Source: Candidatus Uhrbacteria bacterium (GTDB lineage Bacteria > Patescibacteriota > Patescibacteriia > UBA9934 > GWF2-40-263). Taken from it: 64,000 bases of DNA. Location of the stretch: NCBI GenBank assembly GCA_016219925.1, contig JACRJU010000013.1, positions 102,566 to 166,565 of the forward strand. The letters run 5' to 3'. Of this stretch, positions 5,140-48,970 are shown in pieces. The translations under genes were made by a program, and so were the position numbers. The notes below the pieces were generated by a model. That model had not been told where the DNA came from. It was given only the letters and a program-made list of their open reading frames with translations, and searched no databases. The stretch's first letter is position 1, and each line of letters starts with the position of its first letter.

Positions 5140-5380
5140 GGAAAGGCGTCGTGGCCAGAGACCCTTCCAGGAGTGAATAGGAATGATCCCAACGGGATTG
5201 TTTTTAGTCTGCTTGTGTTGCTTACAAAATGGGCGAGCTATCGGCTGACGCTGCGGTCGTCACCTCACCGTACATCGGTGTACGGCTCGGTGCCGTCCTC
5301 GCGTTGTAGCGATATCTCATCCCATTTTGAAACCAACACGTCTGGTTTTGAGCTGATGTCTGCGTGCTGTCAATCTTCTT

Positions 5381-5449
5381 GCGGTTTGAGCTATGTCGGA
5401 GGGAACAGCGACGAGGAGTCCGCTGGCCCGGAGACATAGCATAAACCGC
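5381..5449 (+). repeat. structured hairpin element copy 1 (17-bp closing stem with 2 mismatches, 36-nt conserved core) inside the nrdJ 5' leader
   Basis: gcggtttgagctatgtc / gacatagcataaaccgc form the closing stem around core GGAGGGAACAGCGACGAGGAGTCCGCTGGCCCGGAG. The core matches copy 2 at 32/36 positions. Confidence 0.55.
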
Positions 5450-5495
5450 AAAACAATACCGCCAACAGTTACTTTACTCCTCTGTTACTTCCTTT

Positions 5496-40752: not shown

Positions 40753-40881
40753 TTCTGGGCGACTGTGCTTATGCTTGCCATGAGCCAAGCCGGGCCGAAT
40801 CATCTATGCTTGTTGCGTATATGAAAAGGCAATAGCCCACCTCATTTGACCAAGGGCGTTGTACCTTCCGCGGAGCCTGCC

Positions 40882-41895
40882 ATGAGTGAAACTGACGATT
40901 TAGGGGGAGTTTACCACATCACGGATCGTGAGATTCGGGACAGGGAGTTGACCGGAACGATCCGTCCAACAGATCGAGTGGTGATCCCAGCCAAACATGA
41001 AGGAGCGACCATTCAGCGCACGCTGGAGTACCTCCTGCGTCTTGGCTTCCATCCTCGGCAGATTATCGTGCTCGTCAACGGTTCAACGGCCGTCGATGGA
41101 GAACCCGACGACACAGCCGACAAGGCGATGACTGTCGATTCTGATCTGCAGGTTCTCCATCAGAGTGACCTGCTCGACGCCGCGCTCGTCGCACGCCTGA
41201 CGTGCGACTACAAGATCAACGAGAACAGGCTGCACGGCAAGGGAACGGCGATGTTCGCCGCGCTCGTCGCCCTCCACCGGGCCGGAACGTCTCTGGACGC
41301 GCGGATCATCTTTCTGGATGCCGACATCCAGAACAGCTTCGAGGTCGATCCGGTCGGTCGCCTGTTGATCGGCGCCGACTTCTTCCCGCACGAGGTCAAG
41401 CTGGTCAAGCTGGCTTCGCTTGGACGTGACAACGCGGGCATCCACGCGTTCCTCTCCACGCTCGTCGGGGATTACATGAAGATCGGCGCCCTGCGCTGGC
41501 CGCTGTGCGGACAGGTCGTGGTGCGCTGGGAAGACTTGCGTCAGATGCGTCTGGCGGGCGGCTACGCGGTCGAGATGGCCATGATGATGGATCTCGTCGA
41601 GCGTGCGCATTCCCCGGTGGTGTTCGGGGAAGTCGAGATCGGCGCCGTGCTGATCGACAAGCACAACACGGACCGTGTCCACACGCGCATGTACGCGCAG
41701 ATCATGTGGTTCGCCGGTCAGGTGCAAATGATGGGGTACGGATTGGGCCGTCTCACGTCCAATCTGATGGCCCACATCAATGCCCAGGATCCCTTCCAAA
41801 TCTGGGTGCCGGTCAAGGAATCCGGTCTGGGTTCCAACGAGCTGGAGGATCGCTACCCCGATGCGATCTTTCCCTCGATCGCGGAACTCTTCTAG
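40882..41895 (+). CDS. GT-A fold glycosyltransferase, glucosyl-/mannosyl-3-phosphoglycerate synthase-like (GT81-like)
   Basis: RVVIPAKHE...TIQRTL NDP-sugar binding start, the DxD motif in FLDADIQ, and a conserved His-rich C-terminal region. About 64% GC. The ORF-track start at 40846 is TTG; ATG at 40882. Confidence 0.55.
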   Translation: MSETDDLGGVYHITDREIRDRELTGTIRPTDRVVIPAKHEGATIQRTLEYLLRLGFHPRQIIVLVNGSTAVDGEPDDTADKAMTVDSDLQVLHQSDLLDAALVARLTCDYKINENRLHGKGTAMFAALVALHRAGTSLDARIIFLDADIQNSFEVDPVGRLLIGADFFPHEVKLVKLASLGRDNAGIHAFLSTLVGDYMKIGALRWPLCGQVVVRWEDLRQMRLAGGYAVEMAMMMDLVERAHSPVVFGEVEIGAVLIDKHNTDRVHTRMYAQIMWFAGQVQMMGYGLGRLTSNLMAHINAQDPFQIWVPVKESGLGSNELEDRYPDAIFPSIAELF

Positions 41896-41972
41896 ACGGT
41901 TCGTCCCTCACGTCTCGGGCGCCTCAGCTGTGACTGGCGCCCGCTTTTTATTAGTGATACGATTTTTTTCGT

Positions 41973-43079
41973 ATGAATGTTTTACGTATTGGCCTCATTG
42001 GAGCCGGATATATTGGACGTGAACACGCGCGCTGTCTGCGACTCATCGCTCCGTTGTTTGACGGGAAGGTTCAAGTGCTCGCCATTGCGGATACGAACAA
42101 ACAGGCCGCGCAGTTTGCGGCTCGCCAGTTTGCTATTCCGGTTGCAACGGCGAATGTGGATGAGGTGATCGATCACCCAGAGATCAATGTGATCTTTAGC
42201 TGTGTCCCGACCAAATTTCATCTTGATGTCATGCAAAAAGCGGTGGCAAAAGGTAAAGCCGTTTTTTGTGAAAAGCCCTTTGCGGTTTCGCTTGAGGACG
42301 CTCATCGTCTGCATGATCTTTTAACCAAAAACCAAACCCCTCATCAAGTGGGGTTTGTGCTTCGTTACGCGCCGACGTACCACGCACTCAAAAAAATGCT
42401 CGTAACGCACGCTGACGTCTCACCGTTGCGCACGGTGATTTTGCGCGACGATCAAGTGTTTCCGATTCAAGGGATTTCGCATTTTACCGATTGGCGCAGT
42501 CGCGTGGAGCTTGCGGGCGCGGGAGTTTTGATCGAACACGGGATCCACGATATTGATTTATTTGAGTGGTTATTTGGGCCCATCAAACGAGTGAGCGCGC
42601 GCATGAGTAATTTCGCCGGCTATCCCGGTATCGAGGATTACATCGAGATTCGTATGGAGTTTGAAAGCGGGGTCAGCGCTAACATGATTCATGTATGGCA
42701 TGAGATCGGGGCGCATCAATCCATTCGTCATTTTGAAATTTTCTTCCAAAAGGCTCTCATCACGCTCGATACGTACGACATGCATCACATAAACGTGCGC
42801 GATCAAGAAGCGGAAAAAACCTACGAGCGTCCGGATTTATTCAAACTCGTAAAAGACGATCCGTTGTTTACCGATGTGGCTGACCGTGAAGATTTGTTAT
42901 TTGTCAGCGATTATTACGCTCTACAAGATTATTGGTTTGTAAGAAATCTGCTTGAGGACAAGCCGCTTTTCCCAACCATCCAAGATGGATTGCGCGCATT
43001 TACGCTTGCGTACGCTTGTTACGAGAGCGCAAAAAAAGACGGCGCATGGGTTGCGACGTCTTCAAAAAAACCGGCTTAA
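41973..43079 (+). CDS. Gfo/Idh/MocA-family NAD(P)-dependent oxidoreductase
   Basis: LRIGLIGAGYIGREH Rossmann fold, with the EKP motif (FCEKPFA) characteristic of the family. Confidence 0.8.
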   Translation: MNVLRIGLIGAGYIGREHARCLRLIAPLFDGKVQVLAIADTNKQAAQFAARQFAIPVATANVDEVIDHPEINVIFSCVPTKFHLDVMQKAVAKGKAVFCEKPFAVSLEDAHRLHDLLTKNQTPHQVGFVLRYAPTYHALKKMLVTHADVSPLRTVILRDDQVFPIQGISHFTDWRSRVELAGAGVLIEHGIHDIDLFEWLFGPIKRVSARMSNFAGYPGIEDYIEIRMEFESGVSANMIHVWHEIGAHQSIRHFEIFFQKALITLDTYDMHHINVRDQEAEKTYERPDLFKLVKDDPLFTDVADREDLLFVSDYYALQDYWFVRNLLEDKPLFPTIQDGLRAFTLAYACYESAKKDGAWVATSSKKPA

Positions 43080-43445
43080 GAAATTTTTCTTTTTGGGAAT
43101 CAGCGCTGACGGCGGAGTGACGGATGATTTGAGCGATTCAACGAACTGTACGAGACGCGCCATTTCGCGCTGGACAATCGGACCCTCATACTCGCCCGAG
43201 TGCGCATGAGCCCCTTCGTAGCTCGCTTCTTTTTGATCGACATGCAAGTTGATTTGCATGCCTTGGTTTTTATCTTCAGCGTAGGCGTGATAGCGGGGGA
43301 ATCGTTCTCCGGTCACGCGCCGAATAAAACTGATCTGTCCGCTTCGCGTGCGCTGTTCGCCATAGCCGGCGCGACGCATAAGGTTGCGCGTGTGATCGGA
43401 CAAGGGTCCGGCGATCCAATGTTGCATACATGCTGATCGTACCAT
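43062..43445 (-). CDS. hypothetical His-rich small protein, paralog B of a tandem pair
   Basis: Shares the blocks RR.., FPR[FY]HAY, QI[DN]LH[FV]D, YEG, EM.R[IL] and PPS with the adjacent upstream gene. Its ATG directly abuts the upstream stop (TAAATG). Confidence 0.5.
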   Translation of the reverse strand: MVRSACMQHWIAGPLSDHTRNLMRRAGYGEQRTRSGQISFIRRVTGERFPRYHAYAEDKNQGMQINLHVDQKEASYEGAHAHSGEYEGPIVQREMARLVQFVESLKSSVTPPSALIPKKKNFLSRFF

Positions 43446-43835
43446 TTATTTGAAGAGCATATCAAACCAGTTTTGTTCTTTTGATGGAGGGGAGGCGGGA
43501 CGTGTGAGACGTTCGGTTCCGGCAACGCGAGGGACGTGGTCTTCGAGAATTTCGGTGATGCGACGCATCTCATCAGACACTCGGCTTCCCTCATAAGCCC
43601 ATGTTTGATCGTGATTTCCTTTGTGTCCAATGGGATCAAGCGCGTCGAAATGAAGATCGATTTGTAGTTTGTTTGCTATCTCAATCGAGTAGGCGTGGAA
43701 CCGAGGGAACGCTGGATCATTCAGCCGTCGGTGATAACACGGTCGGCCATCTTTGGCGCAATGATAATCATATCCGATGCGTTTCATGGCGGCTTCGATC
43801 GAGACGTGGGGAGAAAGTGTAAAAGACTTTCTCAT
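43446..43835 (-). CDS. hypothetical His-rich small protein, paralog A of a tandem pair
   Basis: See paralog B. 129 aa. A TTGACA -35-like hexamer lies upstream. Confidence 0.5.
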   Translation of the reverse strand: MRKSFTLSPHVSIEAAMKRIGYDYHCAKDGRPCYHRRLNDPAFPRFHAYSIEIANKLQIDLHFDALDPIGHKGNHDQTWAYEGSRVSDEMRRITEILEDHVPRVAGTERLTRPASPPSKEQNWFDMLFK

Positions 43836-43917: not shown

Positions 43918-44559
43918 CTAGGGAGACTCGCGGCGGTGGCAGGCCTTGTCGTAGGCGGAACTGCCGATCAGCACGCGGTTGAGCTTGTCGCTCGAGGTCA
44001 GGTAGAGCTGGAGCGTGTCGTCGTTGACGTGTGGGAGGGGGACGTATTTCCCCCTGTGCGCGGTTGCGAACGCTTGACGCTCTGCCTCGTCTTGAAAGAA
44101 GAAACCGTGACGGCCACGGATTGCGTTTTCGACCTGGACGAAGTCGTCGCACGAGAGCGCGTCGATGGCTTCCTTGGGGATGCGCTCGTTGTCGAATACG
44201 TGTTGGATGGCGACTTCCAGGGCAGTCGGCGTGGCCGAGGCCGGAAGCGGTTGCGCATCGCTTTGGCCAGGAGCGGTGTCCGCGAGCGATCCCGCGTCGG
44301 GTTCTCCGACTCCCAGCGCGTCCGCGGCCATCGCCGCATCTGCGCTGTCCGGCGCGCTGCCTGCATCCGGCTGGCCGATCGAGCTGGTGTCGGTCGCCGC
44401 GGAAGCCGTGGCATCATTGATGTCCGAACCGGCATCGACGATCGAGGCCGCATGGTCCGGTTCTGCGGCGGAGGCCCTCATGATGAGGTGCCAGGGCAGG
44501 ACGAGCACGGCGGCGAAAAGCACCGCCAATGCCGTGCGAGAGAACGTGGATGGGTTCAC
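43918..44559 (-). CDS. secreted Ala/Asp-rich protein with a C-terminal conserved domain (possibly YARHG-like)
   Basis: GTG start at 44559 with SD AGAGGTG 4 nt upstream. Signal peptide MNPSTFSRTALAVLFAAVLVLPWHLIMRASA. A low-complexity A/D/S linker, then a C-terminal FVQVENAIRGRHGFFFQ block. About 66% GC. Confidence 0.5.
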   Translation of the reverse strand: MNPSTFSRTALAVLFAAVLVLPWHLIMRASAAEPDHAASIVDAGSDINDATASAATDTSSIGQPDAGSAPDSADAAMAADALGVGEPDAGSLADTAPGQSDAQPLPASATPTALEVAIQHVFDNERIPKEAIDALSCDDFVQVENAIRGRHGFFFQDEAERQAFATAHRGKYVPLPHVNDDTLQLYLTSSDKLNRVLIGSSAYDKACHRRESP

Positions 44560-44808: not shown

Positions 44809-44896
44809 GGAGAGGTCGCATAGAGGTCGATTGCGCGCGCTTGGAAAGCGCGTATACCGCAAGGTATCGAGGGTTCGAATCCCTCCCTCTCCGCCA
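44809..44896 (+). tRNA. tRNA-Ser (anticodon GGA), class II with long variable arm, CCA encoded
   Basis: GGAGAGGTCGCATAGAGGTCGATTGCGCGCGCTTGGAAAGCGCGTATACCGCAAGGTATCGAGGGTTCGAATCCCTCCCTCTCCGCCA. The acceptor stem is 7 bp, the anticodon loop is TTGGAAA, the variable arm is 16 nt and the T-loop is TTCGAAT. Confidence 0.85.
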
Positions 44897-44979: not shown

Positions 44980-45783
44980 TCACGTCTGCATCGGCGCGAC
45001 GTGGATCTTTCCTCGTTGGTCGGACGTTTTGGCGTTTCGCAGCTGAGCGTCTGCGCTCTCGAACAGACGTTCGAAGATGCCTTCGACACTGCTACCGGGA
45101 ATGATGATCTGGCTTGCCACGCCGATCGTCACCCCTTGGTGAATGGCGGTGCCGCCGACCATGCATGGTCCGGCTTGCGTGTTGTGCACGATCCGGTTGG
45201 CAACGTATTCGCCGTTGTTCACGACCGCAGTCCATGTCGGATCGACACCTCCGCTTTGGTCAAAAGCGGAAGATGCCAGGTCGCGGTCACGATGTCCGGC
45301 GCGTTCGGCCGGCGGCTGGCTGGCGGAAGTGAAGACAACGAATTCCTCGCCGCCCCATCGAACCACAACGTCCGAACCACGCAGCCATCGCTTGAGAATG
45401 TTGGCGAACCAGATGAGTACGTGATCGCCCGTCGTGTGTCCGTACTGTTTGTTCACGCGACCGCAGTAGTCGAGATCGAGCACGAGCACGGAGACGGTCC
45501 CGTGAAAGGGCACGCCGCCGATGCGGCTCAGTCGTTCAGAGATCATCTGTCGCCCAGGCTCTCGTCGCAGGAGGCCTGTGAGCGGACAGTGAATCTCCCG
45601 AGTGTTCTGTTGCATGAGCAGGGTGCGGCCGGCTGTACTCCGGACGAACGTTTCGATGATGTTCCTGTCGCTGGCTGTGGGGAAGATTCCGGTTTGGTCT
45701 TCCAATCCGCCAGGGTACCGCAGAACGAGTTCTCCTTCCGGTGTGTACCGGATGGAAACCCCATTGCCGTTTTGACTTCCCAT
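44980..45783 (-). CDS. GGDEF-domain diguanylate cyclase (no recognisable sensor domain)
   Basis: The RWGGEEF active-site (GGEEF) motif with upstream D..D..N GGDEF blocks. A 267-aa protein, about 63% GC. Confidence 0.75.
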   Translation of the reverse strand: MGSQNGNGVSIRYTPEGELVLRYPGGLEDQTGIFPTASDRNIIETFVRSTAGRTLLMQQNTREIHCPLTGLLRREPGRQMISERLSRIGGVPFHGTVSVLVLDLDYCGRVNKQYGHTTGDHVLIWFANILKRWLRGSDVVVRWGGEEFVVFTSASQPPAERAGHRDRDLASSAFDQSGGVDPTWTAVVNNGEYVANRIVHNTQAGPCMVGGTAIHQGVTIGVASQIIIPGSSVEGIFERLFESADAQLRNAKTSDQRGKIHVAPMQT

Positions 45784-45904
45784 GTCCTACCTCATGACCT
45801 CTATTGAGAGGGTGACCGTCCACCCTAGCTCAAAAATAGGAAATTGTCAACTGATCGTGTTCAGTATTCTTTGCGCTTGGGGGTGAATAAGGTAGGCTGT
45901 GATC

Positions 45905-47701
45905 ATGTTAGATCCGAAAGATGAAATCAAACAAAAAATTGATATCGTCGAACTCATCGGCGAATATTTGACGCTCAAACCCGCCGGGACACACGCGTTT
46001 AAAGCCGTTTGTCCGTTTCATGCCGAGAAAACGCCGTCGCTTCATGTCTCATCCGATCGTCAGATTTGGCACTGCTTTGGATGCGGGGAAGGAGGTGATT
46101 GTTTAAGTTTCGTCATGAAGATGGAGGGAATGGATTTTGCCGAGGCGCTGATGCACCTCGGCCAGAAGGTGGGGGTGGAGGTGAAGCGTTTTGCGACGCC
46201 GCAGGGCAATCAGAATCTGCGGCTGTCCGAAATCAACGAACTGGCCGCTCGGTATTATCAAAAAGTTCTTGAGCAATCATCGGGGGCTCAAGAAGCACGT
46301 GCGTATGTGCAGAAGCGTGGGATCACCTCGGAACTCTCAACGCGTTTTGGACTCGGATATGCGATGGACCAATGGGACGGCCTCTGTATTTTTTTGCTCA
46401 AGCGCGGGTATGCCCAACAGGAAATTGTGGCCGCGGGTTTAGGCCAGACCAAACGATCGGGTTCTGGGTTGATTGATCGCTTTCGCGGACGACTGATGAT
46501 TCCTCTACGCGACCAGCATGGGAAGACCGTGGGCTTCACCGGTCGATTGATCGCGTCCGCTGTAGGTCCCGACGCTTCCGCTTCGCCAAAATATCTCAAC
46601 TCCCCTGAAACGCCGATCTATCACAAAGGTCGTCTGTTGTATGGATTAGATTTGGCCAAGCGAGCGAGTAAAGAGGCGAAGGCAATCATTATTGTCGAAG
46701 GTAATTTGGATGTGGTGGCTTCGCACAAGGCCGGCGTCGAGCATGTGGTTGCGAGTTCAGGCACCGCGCTCACGCGCGATCAATTTGAACTCCTCTCTCG
46801 TTACACGCAAACGGTCATTTTTTGTTTTGATCAAGACGCGGCGGGCCTCACCGCCGCCAAACGAGGCGTCTCGATCGCGCACGCGCTTCAGTTTGATATC
46901 CGAGCGATCTTGCTTCCAGACGGGGCTAAAGATCCAGACGATCTCGTGCAAAAGGATCCTATGGCTTGGCGACATCTCTGCGAGACATCCATTCCGTTTA
47001 TGGCGTATCTCGTCAGTCGAACCATCAAAGGAAAAAATCTTACGAGCATTGATGACAAGCGTGAGATTTCAAAAGAGTTACTCCCAGCGATTGCAGAGAT
47101 GAGTGACCCTGTGGAGCAAGAACACTGGCTTGGCGAAGTCAGCAGACTGTTGAGCACGGATGAAAGCGCGCTCCGGCGAGCGATCAGACCGTCTCCCATA
47201 GAAAAAAAATCTGCCCCGCTTTCACCCATCCATACCGGACGTCTCAATAAAGAGGGGCAGGCGTTTGCGCTTTTGTTTGGACTTGCCTTAAGCGATGAGG
47301 ATCACGCTCGAACATTTTTTGAAAATCCTCCGTCCTTGCCACGAGAGACGTCCGGTTTGTCCGAGCTTTACACCAAAGCGGAAATCCTTTATCATTCCGG
47401 CAGTAACGCACCCCATCACACATTTTTTTCGCGGCTTCGCTCTGCTCTTGAAGCGCAACAACGAGATGACCTGATTGGCTCTCTCGACACGATCGCCCTT
47501 CTGGCAGAGACAACCTTCGAGGCTATGGAGTCCAAAGAGGTGCCACAATTTATTGAGACCCTGCGCGACGTGCTTGCACGCCACTTTTCGCGAGAGCGAC
47601 GCCGGGCATTGGCCGAGCACATTCGCGATGCGGAACGCTCGGGCGACCAAGAAGCCGTTCGTCGGCTTCTGGAGGAATTAAATTTTGAAAAAGATCCATA
47701 A
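45905..47701 (+). CDS. dnaG: DNA primase
   Basis: CPFHAEKTPSLHV...WHCFGCGEGGD zinc-binding domain, the RNA polymerase core, and a TOPRIM with EG..D (IIVEGNLDV) and DQDAAG. AAGGTAGG lies 9 nt before the ATG at 45905; the ORF-track start at 45899 is GTG. Confidence 0.85.
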   Translation: MLDPKDEIKQKIDIVELIGEYLTLKPAGTHAFKAVCPFHAEKTPSLHVSSDRQIWHCFGCGEGGDCLSFVMKMEGMDFAEALMHLGQKVGVEVKRFATPQGNQNLRLSEINELAARYYQKVLEQSSGAQEARAYVQKRGITSELSTRFGLGYAMDQWDGLCIFLLKRGYAQQEIVAAGLGQTKRSGSGLIDRFRGRLMIPLRDQHGKTVGFTGRLIASAVGPDASASPKYLNSPETPIYHKGRLLYGLDLAKRASKEAKAIIIVEGNLDVVASHKAGVEHVVASSGTALTRDQFELLSRYTQTVIFCFDQDAAGLTAAKRGVSIAHALQFDIRAILLPDGAKDPDDLVQKDPMAWRHLCETSIPFMAYLVSRTIKGKNLTSIDDKREISKELLPAIAEMSDPVEQEHWLGEVSRLLSTDESALRRAIRPSPIEKKSAPLSPIHTGRLNKEGQAFALLFGLALSDEDHARTFFENPPSLPRETSGLSELYTKAEILYHSGSNAPHHTFFSRLRSALEAQQRDDLIGSLDTIALLAETTFEAMESKEVPQFIETLRDVLARHFSRERRRALAEHIRDAERSGDQEAVRRLLEELNFEKDP

Positions 47702-47740
47702 CTCTCTCACGCGCATGACGCTGAGACGGTGACGTTTCCT

Positions 47741-48970
47741 ATGCAGAAAAAAAAGGGTGTGAAGAAGCCGGTCAAGAAGCCGGCAAAAAAGATGGGGGTA
47801 AAAAAATTGACGATTCGTTCAAAGCCAAAAGTCGCTCCGGCTCCGGCTAAAACTCCTGCAGTGCGCTATAAGCGCGCCGAACCTCCCTCGCGGGAGGTGC
47901 TCGATCGGTTGATGGAAAAAGGCAAGCAACGCGGATACATCACGGAGAACGAGGTGTTGTTTACGTTTAGCGATGTAGAAGATTACGTGGAGATGTTTGA
48001 AGAATTTTTGGATCGCATGGAGCGGATGGGAGTGCATTTTGTTGAACTCAAGGAAGGCATTCTCGGACACGCGGCGGACCGTGACGAAGTGTATGACAAG
48101 ATCCGTCTCACGCACGAAAAACAAAAAGGGATTTCGGTTCCTGAACTTACGCAAGATTCCATCCAAATGTATCTGCGCGAGATTGGAAAGATCCCCTTGT
48201 TGAATGGCGAACAAGAAGTGGCGCTGGCCAAGCGTAAGGAGCGTAATGAAAAAGAAGCCGAGCGACGTCTCATCGAAGCCAACCTTCGATTGGTTGTATC
48301 CATTGCCAAGAAGTTTGTGGGTAAGCAGATGTCTCTTCTCGATCTGATTCAAGAAGGCAACATCGGGTTGTTTCGCGCGGTAAAAAAGTTTGAGTATCGC
48401 AAAGGATACAAGTTTTCAACGTATGCGACGTGGTGGATTCGCCAAGCCATTACCCGCGCGCTTGCCGACCAGTCGCGCACGATCCGCATTCCGGTTCACA
48501 TGGTTGAGACGATCAACCGTTTCCAACAGATCGAACGCCAACTGATTCAAGACCTCGGCCGCGAACCGCTTCCTGAAGAGATCGCGGCGGAAATGGGGGA
48601 GAGTGTAGCTAAAGTGCGGCACATTCGGAAGATTTCGCAAGAAACGGTTTCCCTTGAAACGTCCGTTGGAGATGATGACGAAGATTCTAAGCTTGAAGAT
48701 TTTCTTGAAGACGTCAAGACGATTTCGCCGGATCGTCAGGCCGCGCGTGAATTGCTCAAAGATTATGTCACCAAAGCGATGGAAGGACTTACCCCGCGCG
48801 AACAGAAGATTTTGGAAATGCGGTTTGGCTTAACCGACGGCGTGTCGCACACGCTCGAAGAAGTGGGCCGCGAGTTCGATGTGACGCGCGAGCGCATCCG
48901 TCAAATCGAAGCCAAGGCGCTTGAAAAAATCCAAGCAAATCCGCTCATCGAGAAATTAAGAGATTACTAG
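47741..48970 (+). CDS. rpoD: RNA polymerase primary sigma factor (sigma-70)
   Basis: [11 protein letters not shown] (region 1.2), [15 protein letters not shown]...[18 protein letters not shown] (region 2), [14 protein letters not shown], and regions 3 and 4. Sits in a dnaG-rpoD operon. ATG at 47741; the ORF-track start at 47729 is GTG. Confidence 0.85.

What the first reader, a model, noticed from the sequence alone, without database searches (positions are those of the whole stretch)
43062..43835. Tandem pair of paralogous small His-rich proteins of unrecognised family
Two adjacent minus-strand genes of 129 and 127 aa are arranged stop to start (TAAATG). They share the blocks G-Y, RR[LV], FPR[FY]HAY, QI[DN]LH[FV]D, YEG-x-[HR], EM[RA]R[IL] and PPS. 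Otherwise they have diverged, to about 30% identity. The conserved His/Asp/Glu residues (HAY, LHxD, His-rich GAHAHSGEYEG and GHKGNHDQTWAYEG) suggest a metal-binding or hydrolytic fold. I cannot place them in a known family. The pair sits between a Gfo/Idh/MocA oxidoreductase and a high-GC secreted protein.
Basis: seen in the sequence. Interest (0 to 1): 0.5.

Follow-up and report, generated by a model that had tools for sequence, protein, structure and literature searches.

The report
Duplicated orphan membrane-tethered CPR protein
Two neighbouring genes in an Uhrbacteria genome are diverged copies of a small protein found only in the ultra-small Patescibacteria (CPR); it has no known relatives, an unchanging His/Asp/Glu/Tyr cluster and a tail that looks like the MinD membrane anchor, and in many related lineages it is the first gene of the primase/sigma-factor operon, but its function is unknown.

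Summary
Window 43446..43835(-) and 43062..43445(-) encode two paralogs (30% identity, E 2e-17) from a Candidatus Uhrbacteria genome.

The pair is not an isolated oddity. It belongs to a large, unannotated family seen here only in Patescibacteria (>= 4,875 clusters at 90% identity; 503 representatives at 50%).

- **Fold:** confident AlphaFold models (pLDDT 84 and 91) give a beta-alpha-beta4-alpha (KA1/TBP-like) core.
- **Conserved site:** His47, His62, Asp64, His75/76, Tyr80/81 and Glu88/89 are >= 97% conserved.
- **Tail:** a disordered linker is followed, in about half the family, by a C-terminal peptide nearly identical to the E. coli MinD membrane-targeting helix. Three members carry a transmembrane anchor instead.
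- **Context:** the B-type is ancestral and in many lineages is the first cistron of [X]-dnaG-rpoD.
- **Duplication:** the A-type (extra Cys26/Cys33/His35) is a faster-evolving tandem duplicate confined to an Uhrbacteria subclade.

Best reading: a housekeeping, membrane-tethered, ligand- or metal-binding domain now encoded as two co-translated subunits. Function, metal binding and heterodimerisation remain untested.

The parts
43446..43835 (-). Gene A (129 aa; NCBI HZA85_03130, 'hypothetical protein'): the A-type paralog, first cistron of the pair
   Evidence: ORF. 100% match to P0001. A-type HMM score 174 against 74 for the B-type HMM. AF2 model pLDDT 90.9, pTM 0.73.
43062..43427 (-). Gene B (121 aa from the family-consistent start Met7; NCBI HZA85_03125): the B-type, ancestral paralog, second cistron
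   Evidence: ORF. P0028 is the 121-aa form. Homologues start at this Met. B-type HMM score 169 against 85. AF2 model pLDDT 84, pTM 0.71.
43428..43445 (-). 18-nt stretch between A's stop and B's Met7. Alternatively it is six extra N-terminal codons (MVRSAC) if the ATG abutting TAA is used.
   Evidence: Sequence. In 19 of 22 species-level pairs the A-stop to B-start spacer is -4 to +21 nt. A few close relatives also keep the in-frame MVRS extension.
43536..43835 (-). Folded core of A (residues 1-100): beta1-alpha1-beta2-beta3-beta4-beta5-loop-alpha2. Carries H47, H62, D64, H75, Y81, E89 plus the A-specific H25, C26, C33, H35.
   Evidence: DSSP of the model. Conservation 38-39 of 39 A-type sequences.
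43128..43427 (-). Folded core of B (residues 1-100 of the 121-aa form), same topology. Carries Y22, P44, R45, H47, Y49, H62, D64, K66, Y70, H76, Y80, E88.
   Evidence: DSSP of the model. Conservation 345-364 of 364 B-type sequences.
43449..43481 (-). C-terminal peptide of A (KEQNWFDMLFK), the A-type variant of the amphipathic tail, after a disordered linker
   Evidence: AF2 predicts helix 123-128 after a linker block at pLDDT 63. Hydrophobic moment 0.44. The A-type tail consensus KK-R-S-L-F-[DE]-[IL]-L-F-K is conserved across genomes.
43065..43094 (-). C-terminal peptide of B (KKKNFLSRFF), a MinD-MTS-like basic/aromatic amphipathic tail after a disordered linker
   Evidence: 6 of 11 identities to E. 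coli MinD KKGFLKRLFGG; family best 9 of 11. 33% of family tails reach >= 6 of 11 against 0.4% of control ORF C-termini. Linker pLDDT 51-61.
43031..43063 (-). Terminator-like hairpin plus U-run that begins at B's stop codon and ends the bicistronic unit
   Evidence: RNA fold -14 kcal/mol, z = -2.57; 3 of 200 shuffles fold as well. The simple consensus scan missed it.
45899..48970 (+). dnaG-rpoD, the recurrent genomic partner of the family. Here it lies 2.45 kb from the pair and is divergently oriented.
   Evidence: ORFs. Distance and orientation across loci. Same-strand adjacency in other lineages.

Best explanation
The two genes are a lineage-specific tandem duplication of a small stand-alone cytoplasmic protein that I found only in Patescibacteria. 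They are co-transcribed and translationally coupled.

Each copy has three parts:
1. A roughly 100-residue beta-alpha-beta4-alpha domain of the KA1/TBP-like fold class. Its polar sheet face carries a nearly invariant residue cluster. His47 pairs across strands with His62, flanked by Arg45:Asp64 and Tyr49:Asn/Asp60. His75/76 and Tyr80/81 come from the overlying loop, and Glu88/89 sits at the start of helix 2.
2. A disordered polar linker of about 20 residues.
3. A short basic/aromatic amphipathic C-terminal helix of the MinD type.

Most likely mechanism (inferred): the tail reversibly anchors the domain to the cytoplasmic face of the membrane. A single short helix of this type binds weakly, so anchoring should depend on oligomerisation: B:B in single-copy lineages and A:B here. 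At the membrane, the invariant His/Asp/Glu/Tyr site binds a divalent metal or a phosphoryl-bearing ligand and carries out a housekeeping reaction or recognition step. The A copy has gained a Cys26:Cys33 cross-strand pair plus His35, probably on the same sheet face, which points to an added or altered (Zn-type) metal site.

The family's ancestral position as first cistron of [X]-dnaG-rpoD suggests constitutive, growth-linked expression and possibly a role tied to replication or transcription.

Shown here: paralogy, family size, restriction of named members to Patescibacteria, fold class, residue conservation, tail similarity to MinD, and gene order.

Inferred only: membrane binding, metal or ligand binding, heterodimerisation, and any link to primase or sigma factor.
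For: - **Paralogy:** E 2e-17.
- **Family size and distribution:** 503 representatives at 50% identity, 423 with E <= 1e-10. 4,875 clusters at 90% identity; none has a Pfam domain, and every named member is a 'hypothetical protein' of Uhrbacteria, Falkowbacteria, the Parcubacteria group or the Patescibacteria group. Genome hits also include Magasanikiibacteriota and Nealsonbacteria. No hits in phages, plasmids or PADLOC.
- **Site:** H47, D64 and P44 are invariant in 364 B-type and 39 A-type sequences. H62, E88/89, H76/75, Y22 and Y80/81 are >= 97% conserved. The A-type adds H25, C33 and H35 at 39/39 and C26 at 38/39. Strands 45-53 and 56-64 joined by a two-residue turn give the i+j = 109 register.
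- **Tail:** E. coli MinD ends in ...EEEKKGFLKRLFGG. This is a transplantable amphipathic MTS, too weak as a single copy and effective on dimerisation (PMC8155659). Family tails reach 9 of 11 identities. 33% reach >= 6 of 11, against 0.4% of control ORF C-termini and 0.3% of shuffled tails. The hydrophobic i, i+1, i+4, i+5 register occurs in 78%, against 10% and 5%. Three members carry a 19-21-residue C-terminal transmembrane segment in place of the tail, one of them seen on 8 contigs.
- **Operon:** the A-stop to B-start spacer is -4 to +21 nt in 19 of 22 species. A terminator-like hairpin follows B.
- **Duplication history:** B is present in all loci, while A is adjacent upstream in 20 of 43 species genomes and never occurs without B. 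A evolves faster: median core identity 56% against 71%, with B the more conserved copy in 94% of genome pairs.
- **dnaG-rpoD linkage:** same strand and immediately upstream in L045, L049, L051, L052, L055, L056, L057 and L058; within 0.6-4 kb in most Uhrbacteria.
Against: - There are no experimental data of any kind.
- In the B model the loop carrying H76 has low confidence (pLDDT about 57).
- About one third of family representatives are core-only, with no tail. A small subgroup ends in P-P-x-M-R-F-G instead. Membrane tethering therefore cannot be essential to the domain's basic activity.
- Window A's tail matches MinD at only 2 of 11 positions.
- The dnaG-rpoD linkage could be inherited synteny without functional meaning. 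Other lineages place the gene next to rplI-pyrG or inside an AmmeMemoRadiSam cluster.
- Co-folding of A with B could not be run, so the heterodimer is conjecture.
Confidence: 0.5

Rival explanations
1. The C-terminal peptide is not a membrane anchor. It is a short linear docking motif on a flexible tether, built like the SSB or FtsZ C-terminal tails or a clamp-binding motif. It would recruit the domain to a soluble partner such as the sliding clamp, primase or a division protein.
For: The architecture of domain, disordered linker and conserved terminal peptide is also typical of docking tails. From memory, the A-type tails (SLFDLLFK, QNLFDLFF) loosely resemble the bacterial clamp-binding consensus QL[SD]LF. 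The gene is linked to dnaG.
Against: B-type tails are almost the MinD MTS itself (up to 9 of 11 identities) and lack the Gln of clamp motifs. Three family members replace the tail with a true C-terminal transmembrane segment, which fits membrane anchoring and not docking to a soluble partner. No clamp, SSB or FtsZ gene is a conserved neighbour.
Confidence: 0.15
2. The conserved sheet face is a nucleic-acid-binding surface rather than a metal or catalytic site. It would resemble TBP-like domains and RNA-binding KA1 domains, recognising RNA, ssDNA or RNA:DNA primers in connection with primase.
For: The conserved Arg/Lys (R18, R36/37, R45, K66, R91) and Tyr (22, 34, 49, 70, 80) residues lie on or near the sheet. 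Structural neighbours include METTL16/TUT1 KA1 domains bound to U6 snRNA and the RNase HIII N-domain. The gene is the first cistron of the dnaG-rpoD operon in many lineages.
Against: The residues conserved at 100% are His, Asp and Glu. These are unusual as the core of a purely nucleic-acid-binding surface and typical of metal or acid-base sites. The C-terminal half of the domain is acidic. All structural matches are weak.
Confidence: 0.2
3. The pair is a toxin-antitoxin, defence or other mobile two-gene module.
For: Two small adjacent co-transcribed genes of unknown function.
Against: The two proteins are paralogs of each other, unlike toxin-antitoxin pairs. In most lineages the gene is single. 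Synteny with core genes (ligA-gatCA-lgt ... dnaG-rpoD) is conserved. There are no PADLOC, PHROG, phage or plasmid hits.
Confidence: 0.02
4. One or both ORFs are spurious or decaying (pseudogenised) copies.
For: The A-type evolves faster than the B-type.
Against: Both are intact. Both are conserved across at least 20 species-level genomes with type-specific invariant residues and type-specific conserved tails. Both give confident AF2 models.
Confidence: 0.01

Closest known systems
KA1 (kinase-associated-1) domains, and more broadly the TBP-like beta-alpha-beta(4)-alpha fold class (fold-class name from memory of SCOP)
[quoted passage not shown]
   Same: Same position (extreme C-terminus after a flexible segment), length, basic prefix and hydrophobic i, i+1, i+4, i+5 register. 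Up to 9 of 11 residues are identical to E. coli MinD KKGFLKRLFGG. The MinD MTS is a transplantable amphipathic helix whose single copy binds weakly and which works on dimerisation (PMC8155659).
   Different: The attached domain is unrelated to the MinD/ParA ATPase: there is no P-loop and no Pfam CbiA/ParA hit. The A-type tail carries an acidic residue and is only distantly MinD-like. A third of the family lacks the tail. Membrane binding has not been tested.
rpsU (ribosomal protein bS21) as first gene of the classical rpsU-dnaG-rpoD macromolecular-synthesis operon (from memory)
   Same: Occupies the same slot, a small gene immediately upstream of and co-oriented with dnaG-rpoD, in at least eight independent Parcubacteria loci.
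   Different: No similarity to S21: no Pfam hit. The protein is not a small highly basic protein, it has a folded alpha+beta domain, and it carries a membrane-type tail.
Pcc1 of the KEOPS complex
CPR-C4, a conserved CPR 'hypothetical' shown to be a vasohibin-like cysteine protease (PMC9108980)
   Same: Another CPR-wide orphan family whose role emerged only from structure.
   Different: A different protein: transglutaminase-like fold with a Cys61/His93/Leu115 triad, crystallised as a homodimer (435 residues modelled in one crystal form). It was returned neither by the profile searches against PDB sequences nor among the listed top hits of the fold searches.

Membership tests
Any curated protein family (Pfam-A, NCBIfam, PHROGs, PADLOC) | Profile match at or near the curated threshold | tested here: not met
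   A has no Pfam or NCBIfam hit at E <= 10. B's best hits are PCSK9_C2 (E 0.19) and FAD-I (E 0.021), both far below cut-off. PHROGs best E is 0.11. PADLOC gives none. Of 133 members scanned singly, the best recurrent hits are GrpB in 3 members (E 0.049) and DUF7390 in 2 (E 0.006).
Any protein with a solved structure | Sequence or profile similarity to a PDB chain | tested here: not met
   phmmer and three family profiles give only S4 (E 0.13) and coiled-coil matches to the linker (E >= 0.035).
KA1 domain | Five-stranded antiparallel sheet plus two helices in beta-alpha-beta4-alpha order | tested here: met
   DSSP of both models: E2-5, H13-19, E23-26, E32-37, E45-53, E56-64, H83-100. KA1 description in PMC4454167.
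KA1 domain | Homology-level structural or sequence similarity to known KA1 domains | tested here: not met
KA1 domain | Occurs as the C-terminal module of a larger enzyme (kinase, METTL16, TUT1) | tested here: not met
   All 150 listed best representatives (of 503) are stand-alone proteins of 80-170 aa. The apparent long ORF in L047 is a shadow frame and not a fusion.
MinD-type membrane-targeting sequence (the peptide module, not the MinD ATPase family) | Extreme C-terminal position after a flexible segment | tested here: met
   Linker pLDDT 51-63. The tail is the last 10-11 residues. The A model predicts helix 123-128.
MinD-type membrane-targeting sequence (the peptide module, not the MinD ATPase family) | Basic residues followed by an amphipathic hydrophobic i, i+1, i+4, i+5 pattern; sequence similarity to KKGFLKRLFGG | tested here: met
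   The pattern occurs in 78% of family tails, against 10% of control ORF C-termini and 5% of shuffled tails. >= 6 of 11 identities in 33% against 0.4%. Window B scores 6 of 11 and window A only 2 of 11.
MinD-type membrane-targeting sequence (the peptide module, not the MinD ATPase family) | Binds membranes in vivo or in vitro | not testable with these tools
   Only indirect support: three members substitute a C-terminal transmembrane segment.
MinD/ParA ATPase family | Deviant Walker A P-loop ATPase domain | tested here: not met
   No CbiA/ParA/MinD Pfam hit. The domain is about 100 aa with a different fold.
Mononuclear metal-binding (His/His/Asp-type) site | Invariant His/Asp/Glu ligand candidates | tested here: met
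   H47 and D64 at 100%. H62, H76/75 and E88/89 at >= 97% across 403 sequences.
Mononuclear metal-binding (His/His/Asp-type) site | Ligand side chains converge within coordination distance | tested here: inconclusive
   Strand register places H47 opposite H62, and D64 two residues along on the same face.
Mononuclear metal-binding (His/His/Asp-type) site | Metal actually bound, or metal-dependent activity | not testable with these tools
   Needs ICP-MS, a crystal structure or enzymology.
Type II toxin-antitoxin or anti-phage defence module | Two non-homologous partners with known toxin, antitoxin or defence domains in a variable or mobile context | tested here: not met
   The partners are paralogs. 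No PADLOC, PHROG, phage or plasmid hits. Core-gene synteny is conserved.
Ribosomal protein bS21 (first gene of rpsU-dnaG-rpoD) | Similarity to Ribosomal_S21 | tested here: not met
   No such Pfam hit in the window proteins or among the recurrent weak hits listed for the 133 members. Only the operon position is shared.

The most novel reading that the evidence does not exclude
This family is a housekeeping factor specific to Patescibacteria that works at the inner face of the membrane as a small metallo- or phospho-enzyme, or as a nucleic-acid-recognition module. It would be functionally coupled to primase and the primary sigma factor, for example by tethering or regulating replication priming or transcription at the membrane. 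Membrane avidity would be switched by homo- or hetero-dimerisation through two weak MinD-like helices. In the Uhrbacteria subclade the A copy would have become a specialised Zn-binding partner subunit.
Probability: 0.15. Interest if true: 0.75.

Novelty: new variant of a known kind. Interest (0 to 1): 0.5.

Why it matters
Patescibacteria (CPR) make up a large share of bacterial diversity, have tiny genomes and almost no cultured members. A large fraction of their conserved genes have no assigned function.

This family is:
- abundant: thousands of 90%-identity clusters;
- seen here only in that group;
- under strong constraint: seven residues at >= 97-100% conservation;
- located in a core housekeeping neighbourhood, often as the first gene of the primase/sigma-factor operon;
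- small enough (about 100-residue core) to be easy to express and crystallise.

It also shows the MinD membrane-targeting peptide reused, almost letter for letter, on an unrelated domain. That gives a simple, testable handle on localisation. A defined function would fill a gap in the minimal cell biology of these organisms. The A/B duplication offers a natural experiment in subunit specialisation.

If instead the family proves to be a routine small metal-binding protein, the result is still a clean new domain family suitable for Pfam.

Tried and rejected
- **PDB sequence searches.** One sequence and three profiles gave nothing.
- **Model coordinates.** They are not exposed to scripts, so no distances could be measured.
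- **Distant genome scans.** Scans with the diverse alignments failed for lack of a conserved 7-10-column stretch. A tighter B-only alignment worked.
- **Organism names.** Two cluster look-ups were mostly uninformative.
- **Literature.** I found no description of the family. CPR-C4 was checked and is a different protein.
- **Promoter upstream of A.** There is a perfect TTGACA at 43874-43869, but no acceptable -10 was found by the scan, so I make no promoter claim.
- **ZIP zinc-transporter adjacency.** I considered it as support for a metal link, but it is confined to three related loci.
- **L047 'fusion'.** It is a GC-rich shadow ORF.
Full report
**1. Observation**

A is at 43446..43835 (129 aa). 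B is at 43062..43445 (127 aa as the maximal ORF), and A's TAA is followed directly by an ATG.

BLASTP of A against B gives 30% identity over 116 residues, E = 2e-17, so they are true paralogs. The exact proteins are in NCBI as 'hypothetical protein' HZA85_03130 and HZA85_03125 of a Candidatus Uhrbacteria bacterium, on a 282-kb contig. The NCBI lineage is Patescibacteria group > Parcubacteria group > Ca. Uhriibacteriota.

Several details need correcting:
- NCBI starts B at Met7 (121 aa). Almost all of about 120 homologues start at the equivalent Met. Strand beta1 begins at residue 2 of that form. Among 22 species-level A-B pairs, the spacer from A's stop to this start is -4 to +21 nt in 19 cases, and it is 18 nt in the window. 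TAAATG may therefore not be the functional junction, although a few close relatives also keep the in-frame 'MVRS' extension.
- 'PPS' lies in a non-conserved linker.

**2. No known family**

Neither protein reaches significance in Pfam, NCBIfam, PHROGs or PADLOC or against PDB sequences. Profiles built from 84-133 family members also find nothing meaningful in PDB.

Scanning 133 diverse members one by one against Pfam at E <= 1 gives no recurrent hit near threshold. The best are GrpB in 3 of 133 members (E 0.049) and DUF7390 in 2 (E 0.006).

There are no tblastn hits in 50,697 phage or 72,556 plasmid records. The literature searches found no description of the family. The one characterised CPR-wide orphan I found, CPR-C4, is a different protein, a transglutaminase-like cysteine protease.

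**3. The family is large and appears restricted**

A profile of both paralogs' homologues, searched against 1.84 billion representatives clustered at 50% identity, finds 503 proteins with E <= 1e-3. Of these, 423 have E <= 1e-10. All 150 listed best hits are 80-170 aa and stand-alone.

A diverse profile finds 4,875 clusters at 90% identity. None has a Pfam domain. Every named one is a hypothetical protein of Uhrbacteria, Falkowbacteria, the Parcubacteria group or the Patescibacteria group. A scan of species-representative genomes adds Magasanikiibacteriota and Nealsonbacteria.

**4. Two subtypes and a lineage-specific duplication**

HMMs separate a majority 'B-type' from a minority 'A-type'. 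Of the sequences held, 364 are B-type, 39 are A-type and 2 are ambiguous.

In 43 species-level loci, B is always present. An A-type gene lies immediately upstream on the same strand in 20 of them. Two loci have A-A-B. A never occurs without B. Three loci have a further, very divergent copy on the opposite strand.

Within the same genomes A diverges faster than B. Median core identity between orthologues is 56% for A and 71% for B, and B is the more conserved copy in 94% of 231 genome pairs. A and B within one genome share 28-37% identity.

The window pair is therefore an old tandem duplication, retained in an Uhrbacteria subclade, of a gene that is single elsewhere. The unit ends in a terminator-like hairpin with a U-run that starts at B's stop codon (-14 kcal/mol, z = -2.6).

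**5. Structure**

AlphaFold2 with family alignments gives confident models for both proteins: B has pLDDT 84 and pTM 0.71, and A has pLDDT 90.9 and pTM 0.73.

The order of elements is the same in both:

| Element | Residues (B model) |
|---|---|
| beta1 | 2-5 |
| alpha1 | 13-19 |
| beta2 | 23-26 |
| beta3 | 32-37 |
| beta4 | 45-53 |
| beta5 | 56-64 |
| loop | 65-82 |
| alpha2 | 83-100 |

After alpha2 comes a low-confidence linker. In the A model a short terminal helix (123-128) follows.

- KA1 domains (Chk1, Kcc4, BRSK1, AMPK-alpha C-terminal domain, METTL16/TUT1);
- the BamC N-domain and Pcc1;
- phosphoglucomutase domain 4;
- Bet v 1/START/AHSA1/CoxG proteins;
- the RNase HIII N-domain.

From my knowledge of SCOP these belong to the 'TBP-like' beta-alpha-beta(4)-alpha fold class. 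KA1 is described in the literature as five strands plus two helices (PMC4454167). This is a statement about fold class and not evidence of homology.

**6. The conserved site**

Across 364 B-type and 39 A-type sequences:

| Residue (B / A numbering) | B-type (n = 364) | A-type (n = 39) |
|---|---|---|
| P44 | 364 | 39 |
| H47 | 364 | 39 |
| D64 | 364 | 39 |
| H62 | 363 | 39 |
| E88 / E89 | 363 | 39 |
| H76 / H75 | 362 | 38 |
| Y22 | 360 | 39 |
| Y80 / Y81 | 360 | 38 |

Strands 45-53 and 56-64 are joined by a two-residue turn. Residues i and j with i + j = 109 are therefore cross-strand neighbours: H47:H62, R45:D64 and Y49:N60 (D60 in A). All of these lie on the polar face, whereas F46, A48, L61 and V63 face the helices.

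An i, i+2 pair (H62, D64) plus a His on the adjacent strand (H47) is the geometry of classical sheet-borne metal sites such as carbonic anhydrase (from memory). H75/76 and Y80/81 come from the loop that should cover this face.

The A-type adds H25, C33 and H35 (39 of 39) and C26 (38 of 39). The same reasoning applied to strands 23-28 and 31-37 makes C26:C33 a cross-strand pair with H35 beside it, probably on the same face. This suggests an added Zn-type site in A.

A nucleic-acid or phospho-ligand surface is a live alternative, given the conserved Arg, Lys and Tyr residues and the RNA-binding KA1 and TBP-like neighbours.

**7. The tail**

After alpha2 comes a polar, low-complexity linker. In many members it is followed by a terminal peptide such as KKKGFWGTLFG, KKGFFSRLFGG or EEKKGFFAQLFK.

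I read the E. coli MinD C-terminus from NC_000913. It is ...EEEKKGFLKRLFGG. This is the MinD membrane-targeting sequence (residues 256-270), a transplantable amphipathic helix. One copy binds membranes too weakly, and it becomes effective on dimerisation (PMC8155659).

Comparison of the last 12-16 residues of 332 family proteins of >= 112 aa with two controls:

| Measure | Family | 1,105 unrelated ORF C-termini | Shuffled family tails |
|---|---|---|---|
| >= 6 of 11 identities to the MinD MTS | 33% | 0.4% | 0.3% |
| Hydrophobic i, i+1, i+4, i+5 register | 78% | 10% | 5% |

The best family tail reaches 9 of 11 identities. Window B scores 6 of 11. Window A scores 2 of 11 and carries the A-type variant KK-R-S-L-F-[DE]-[IL]-L-F-K, which is itself conserved across genomes.

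The 150 representatives fall into these classes:
- about 72 or more have such a tail;
- about 50 are core-only;
- about 6 end in P-P-x-M-R-F-G;
- 3 (P0186, P0248, P0258) carry a 19-21-residue C-terminal transmembrane segment in its place. P0248 was seen on 8 contigs.

Replacement of the tail by a transmembrane anchor is what a membrane tether predicts. It is not what a docking peptide for a soluble partner predicts.

**8. Genomic context**

In Uhrbacteria the pair lies in a conserved core neighbourhood: ligA-gatC-gatA-lgt-trmB-(variable slot)-[B<-A] ... dnaG-rpoD. dnaG-rpoD sits 1.5-4 kb away in divergent orientation, and the distance is 2.45 kb in the window.

In lineages with a single B gene, that gene lies immediately upstream of dnaG-rpoD on the same strand in L045, L049, L051, L052 (one Ham1-like gene between), L055, L056, L057 (5-nt gap) and L058. 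From memory, this is the slot that rpsU occupies in the classical macromolecular-synthesis operon.

Other contexts also occur. The gene lies upstream of rplI-pyrG in L053 and L054. In a Nealsonbacteria genome it lies between LigB/Memo-like and AMMECR1 genes, next to a radical-SAM gene.

There is no universal partner gene other than this recurrent dnaG-rpoD linkage. The linkage argues for a housekeeping role but could be inherited synteny.

**9. Interpretation and confidence**

Firmly shown:
- the genes are real, paralogous, co-oriented and tightly coupled;
- the family is large, unannotated and appears restricted to Patescibacteria;
- the models agree on a beta-alpha-beta4-alpha fold;
- the residue cluster is extremely conserved;
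- the tail is MinD-MTS-like;
- A is a lineage-specific duplicate;
- the family is recurrently linked to dnaG-rpoD.

Inferred, with my rough probabilities:
- the tail tethers the protein to the membrane (about 0.65);
- the conserved cluster binds a metal or phosphoryl ligand, possibly catalytically (about 0.4 for metal specifically);
- A and B act together as a hetero-oligomer whose two weak helices give membrane avidity (about 0.4);
- there is a functional tie to primase or sigma factor (about 0.15).

Rivals:
- tail as docking motif (0.15);
- non-catalytic nucleic-acid binding (0.2);
- toxin-antitoxin or defence module (0.02);
- spurious or decaying ORFs (0.01).

**10. Novelty and score**

The building blocks are known: a common alpha+beta fold class and a MinD-type amphipathic helix. 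The sequence family, its invariant site, its taxonomic restriction and its operon position are undescribed as far as these searches can tell. I rate it a new variant of a known kind, with interest 0.5.

It is a good, tractable lead for CPR cell biology and a clean candidate for a new domain family. It is one of many CPR orphans, and nothing yet shows an unusual mechanism.

Noticed in passing
window 43062-43079 and 43031-43063: The Gfo/Idh/MocA gene (41973..43079, +) and gene B (from 43062, -) converge and overlap by 18 bp. B's terminator-like hairpin lies inside the last codons of the oxidoreductase gene.
   Followed up: partly
window 43918-44559 (-): A 213-aa ORF with a signal-like N-terminus and an Ala/Asp-rich body lies in locally high-GC DNA (0.66-0.67 against about 0.50 around it). 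It has no Pfam hit. The gene at the equivalent position in L002 had only a faint YARHG hit.
   Followed up: partly
window 44809-44896 (+): tRNA-Ser(GGA) lies between the secreted-protein ORF and the GGDEF gene. A tRNA-like sequence also seems to lie upstream of the A gene in L004 (about 5250-5470), but I did not verify it.
   Followed up: partly
window 44980-45783 (-): A 267-aa GGDEF protein (GGEEF motif) has a Pfam match covering only profile positions 5-98 of 161 and no recognised sensor domain. It sits between the pair and dnaG.
   Followed up: no
window 40846-43079: A glycosyltransferase-like ORF (only sub-threshold GT2 and mannosyl-3-phosphoglycerate-synthase hits; GC 0.61-0.63) plus the Gfo/Idh/MocA gene occupy the slot between trmB and the pair. 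Other Uhrbacteria (L002, L004) carry a DUF218 gene there. This looks like a variable insertion point.
   Followed up: partly
L050 6214-8796: In a Nealsonbacteria genome the single B-type gene sits between a LigB/Memo-like gene and an AMMECR1 gene, next to a radical-SAM gene (an AmmeMemoRadiSam-type cluster). Pfam confirms the neighbours.
   Followed up: yes
L055 1933-3305; L055-L057 upstream of B: A reverse-transcriptase plus bAvd (diversity-generating-retroelement-like) cassette lies beside B-dnaG-rpoD in L055. A ZIP-family metal transporter is divergently adjacent to B in L056 and L057 and lies about 3.3 kb upstream in L055. I found it in no other locus.
   Followed up: yes
family representatives P0162, P0169, P0174, P0236, P0295: A subgroup of the family ends in a different conserved C-terminal motif (P-P-x-M-R-F-G or S-F-R-F-G) instead of the MinD-like tail. 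Its meaning is unknown.
   Followed up: no
L026 5646-6050, L030 3543-4037, L033 3295-3873 (all '-'): A third, very divergent paralog scores about equally with the A-type and B-type HMMs. It lies on the opposite strand 2-4 kb from B in three Uhrbacteria genomes that lack an adjacent A gene.
   Followed up: no
L013, L016-L018, L031, L033, L034, L037, L038, L043-L045, L047 (record titles): Many species-representative MAG records that carry this Patescibacteria-type family (some also with dnaG-rpoD in the fetched DNA) are titled 'uncultured Gammaproteobacteria bacterium'. The record titles are probably mislabelled.
   Followed up: no
L008 4246-4325; L013 and L016 A-B spacers: In three genomes the A-B spacer is long (80-155 nt). 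In L008 it contains an obvious inverted repeat (ggttttgggt...acccagaacc), possibly an inserted hairpin or terminator that uncouples the two cistrons.
   Followed up: no
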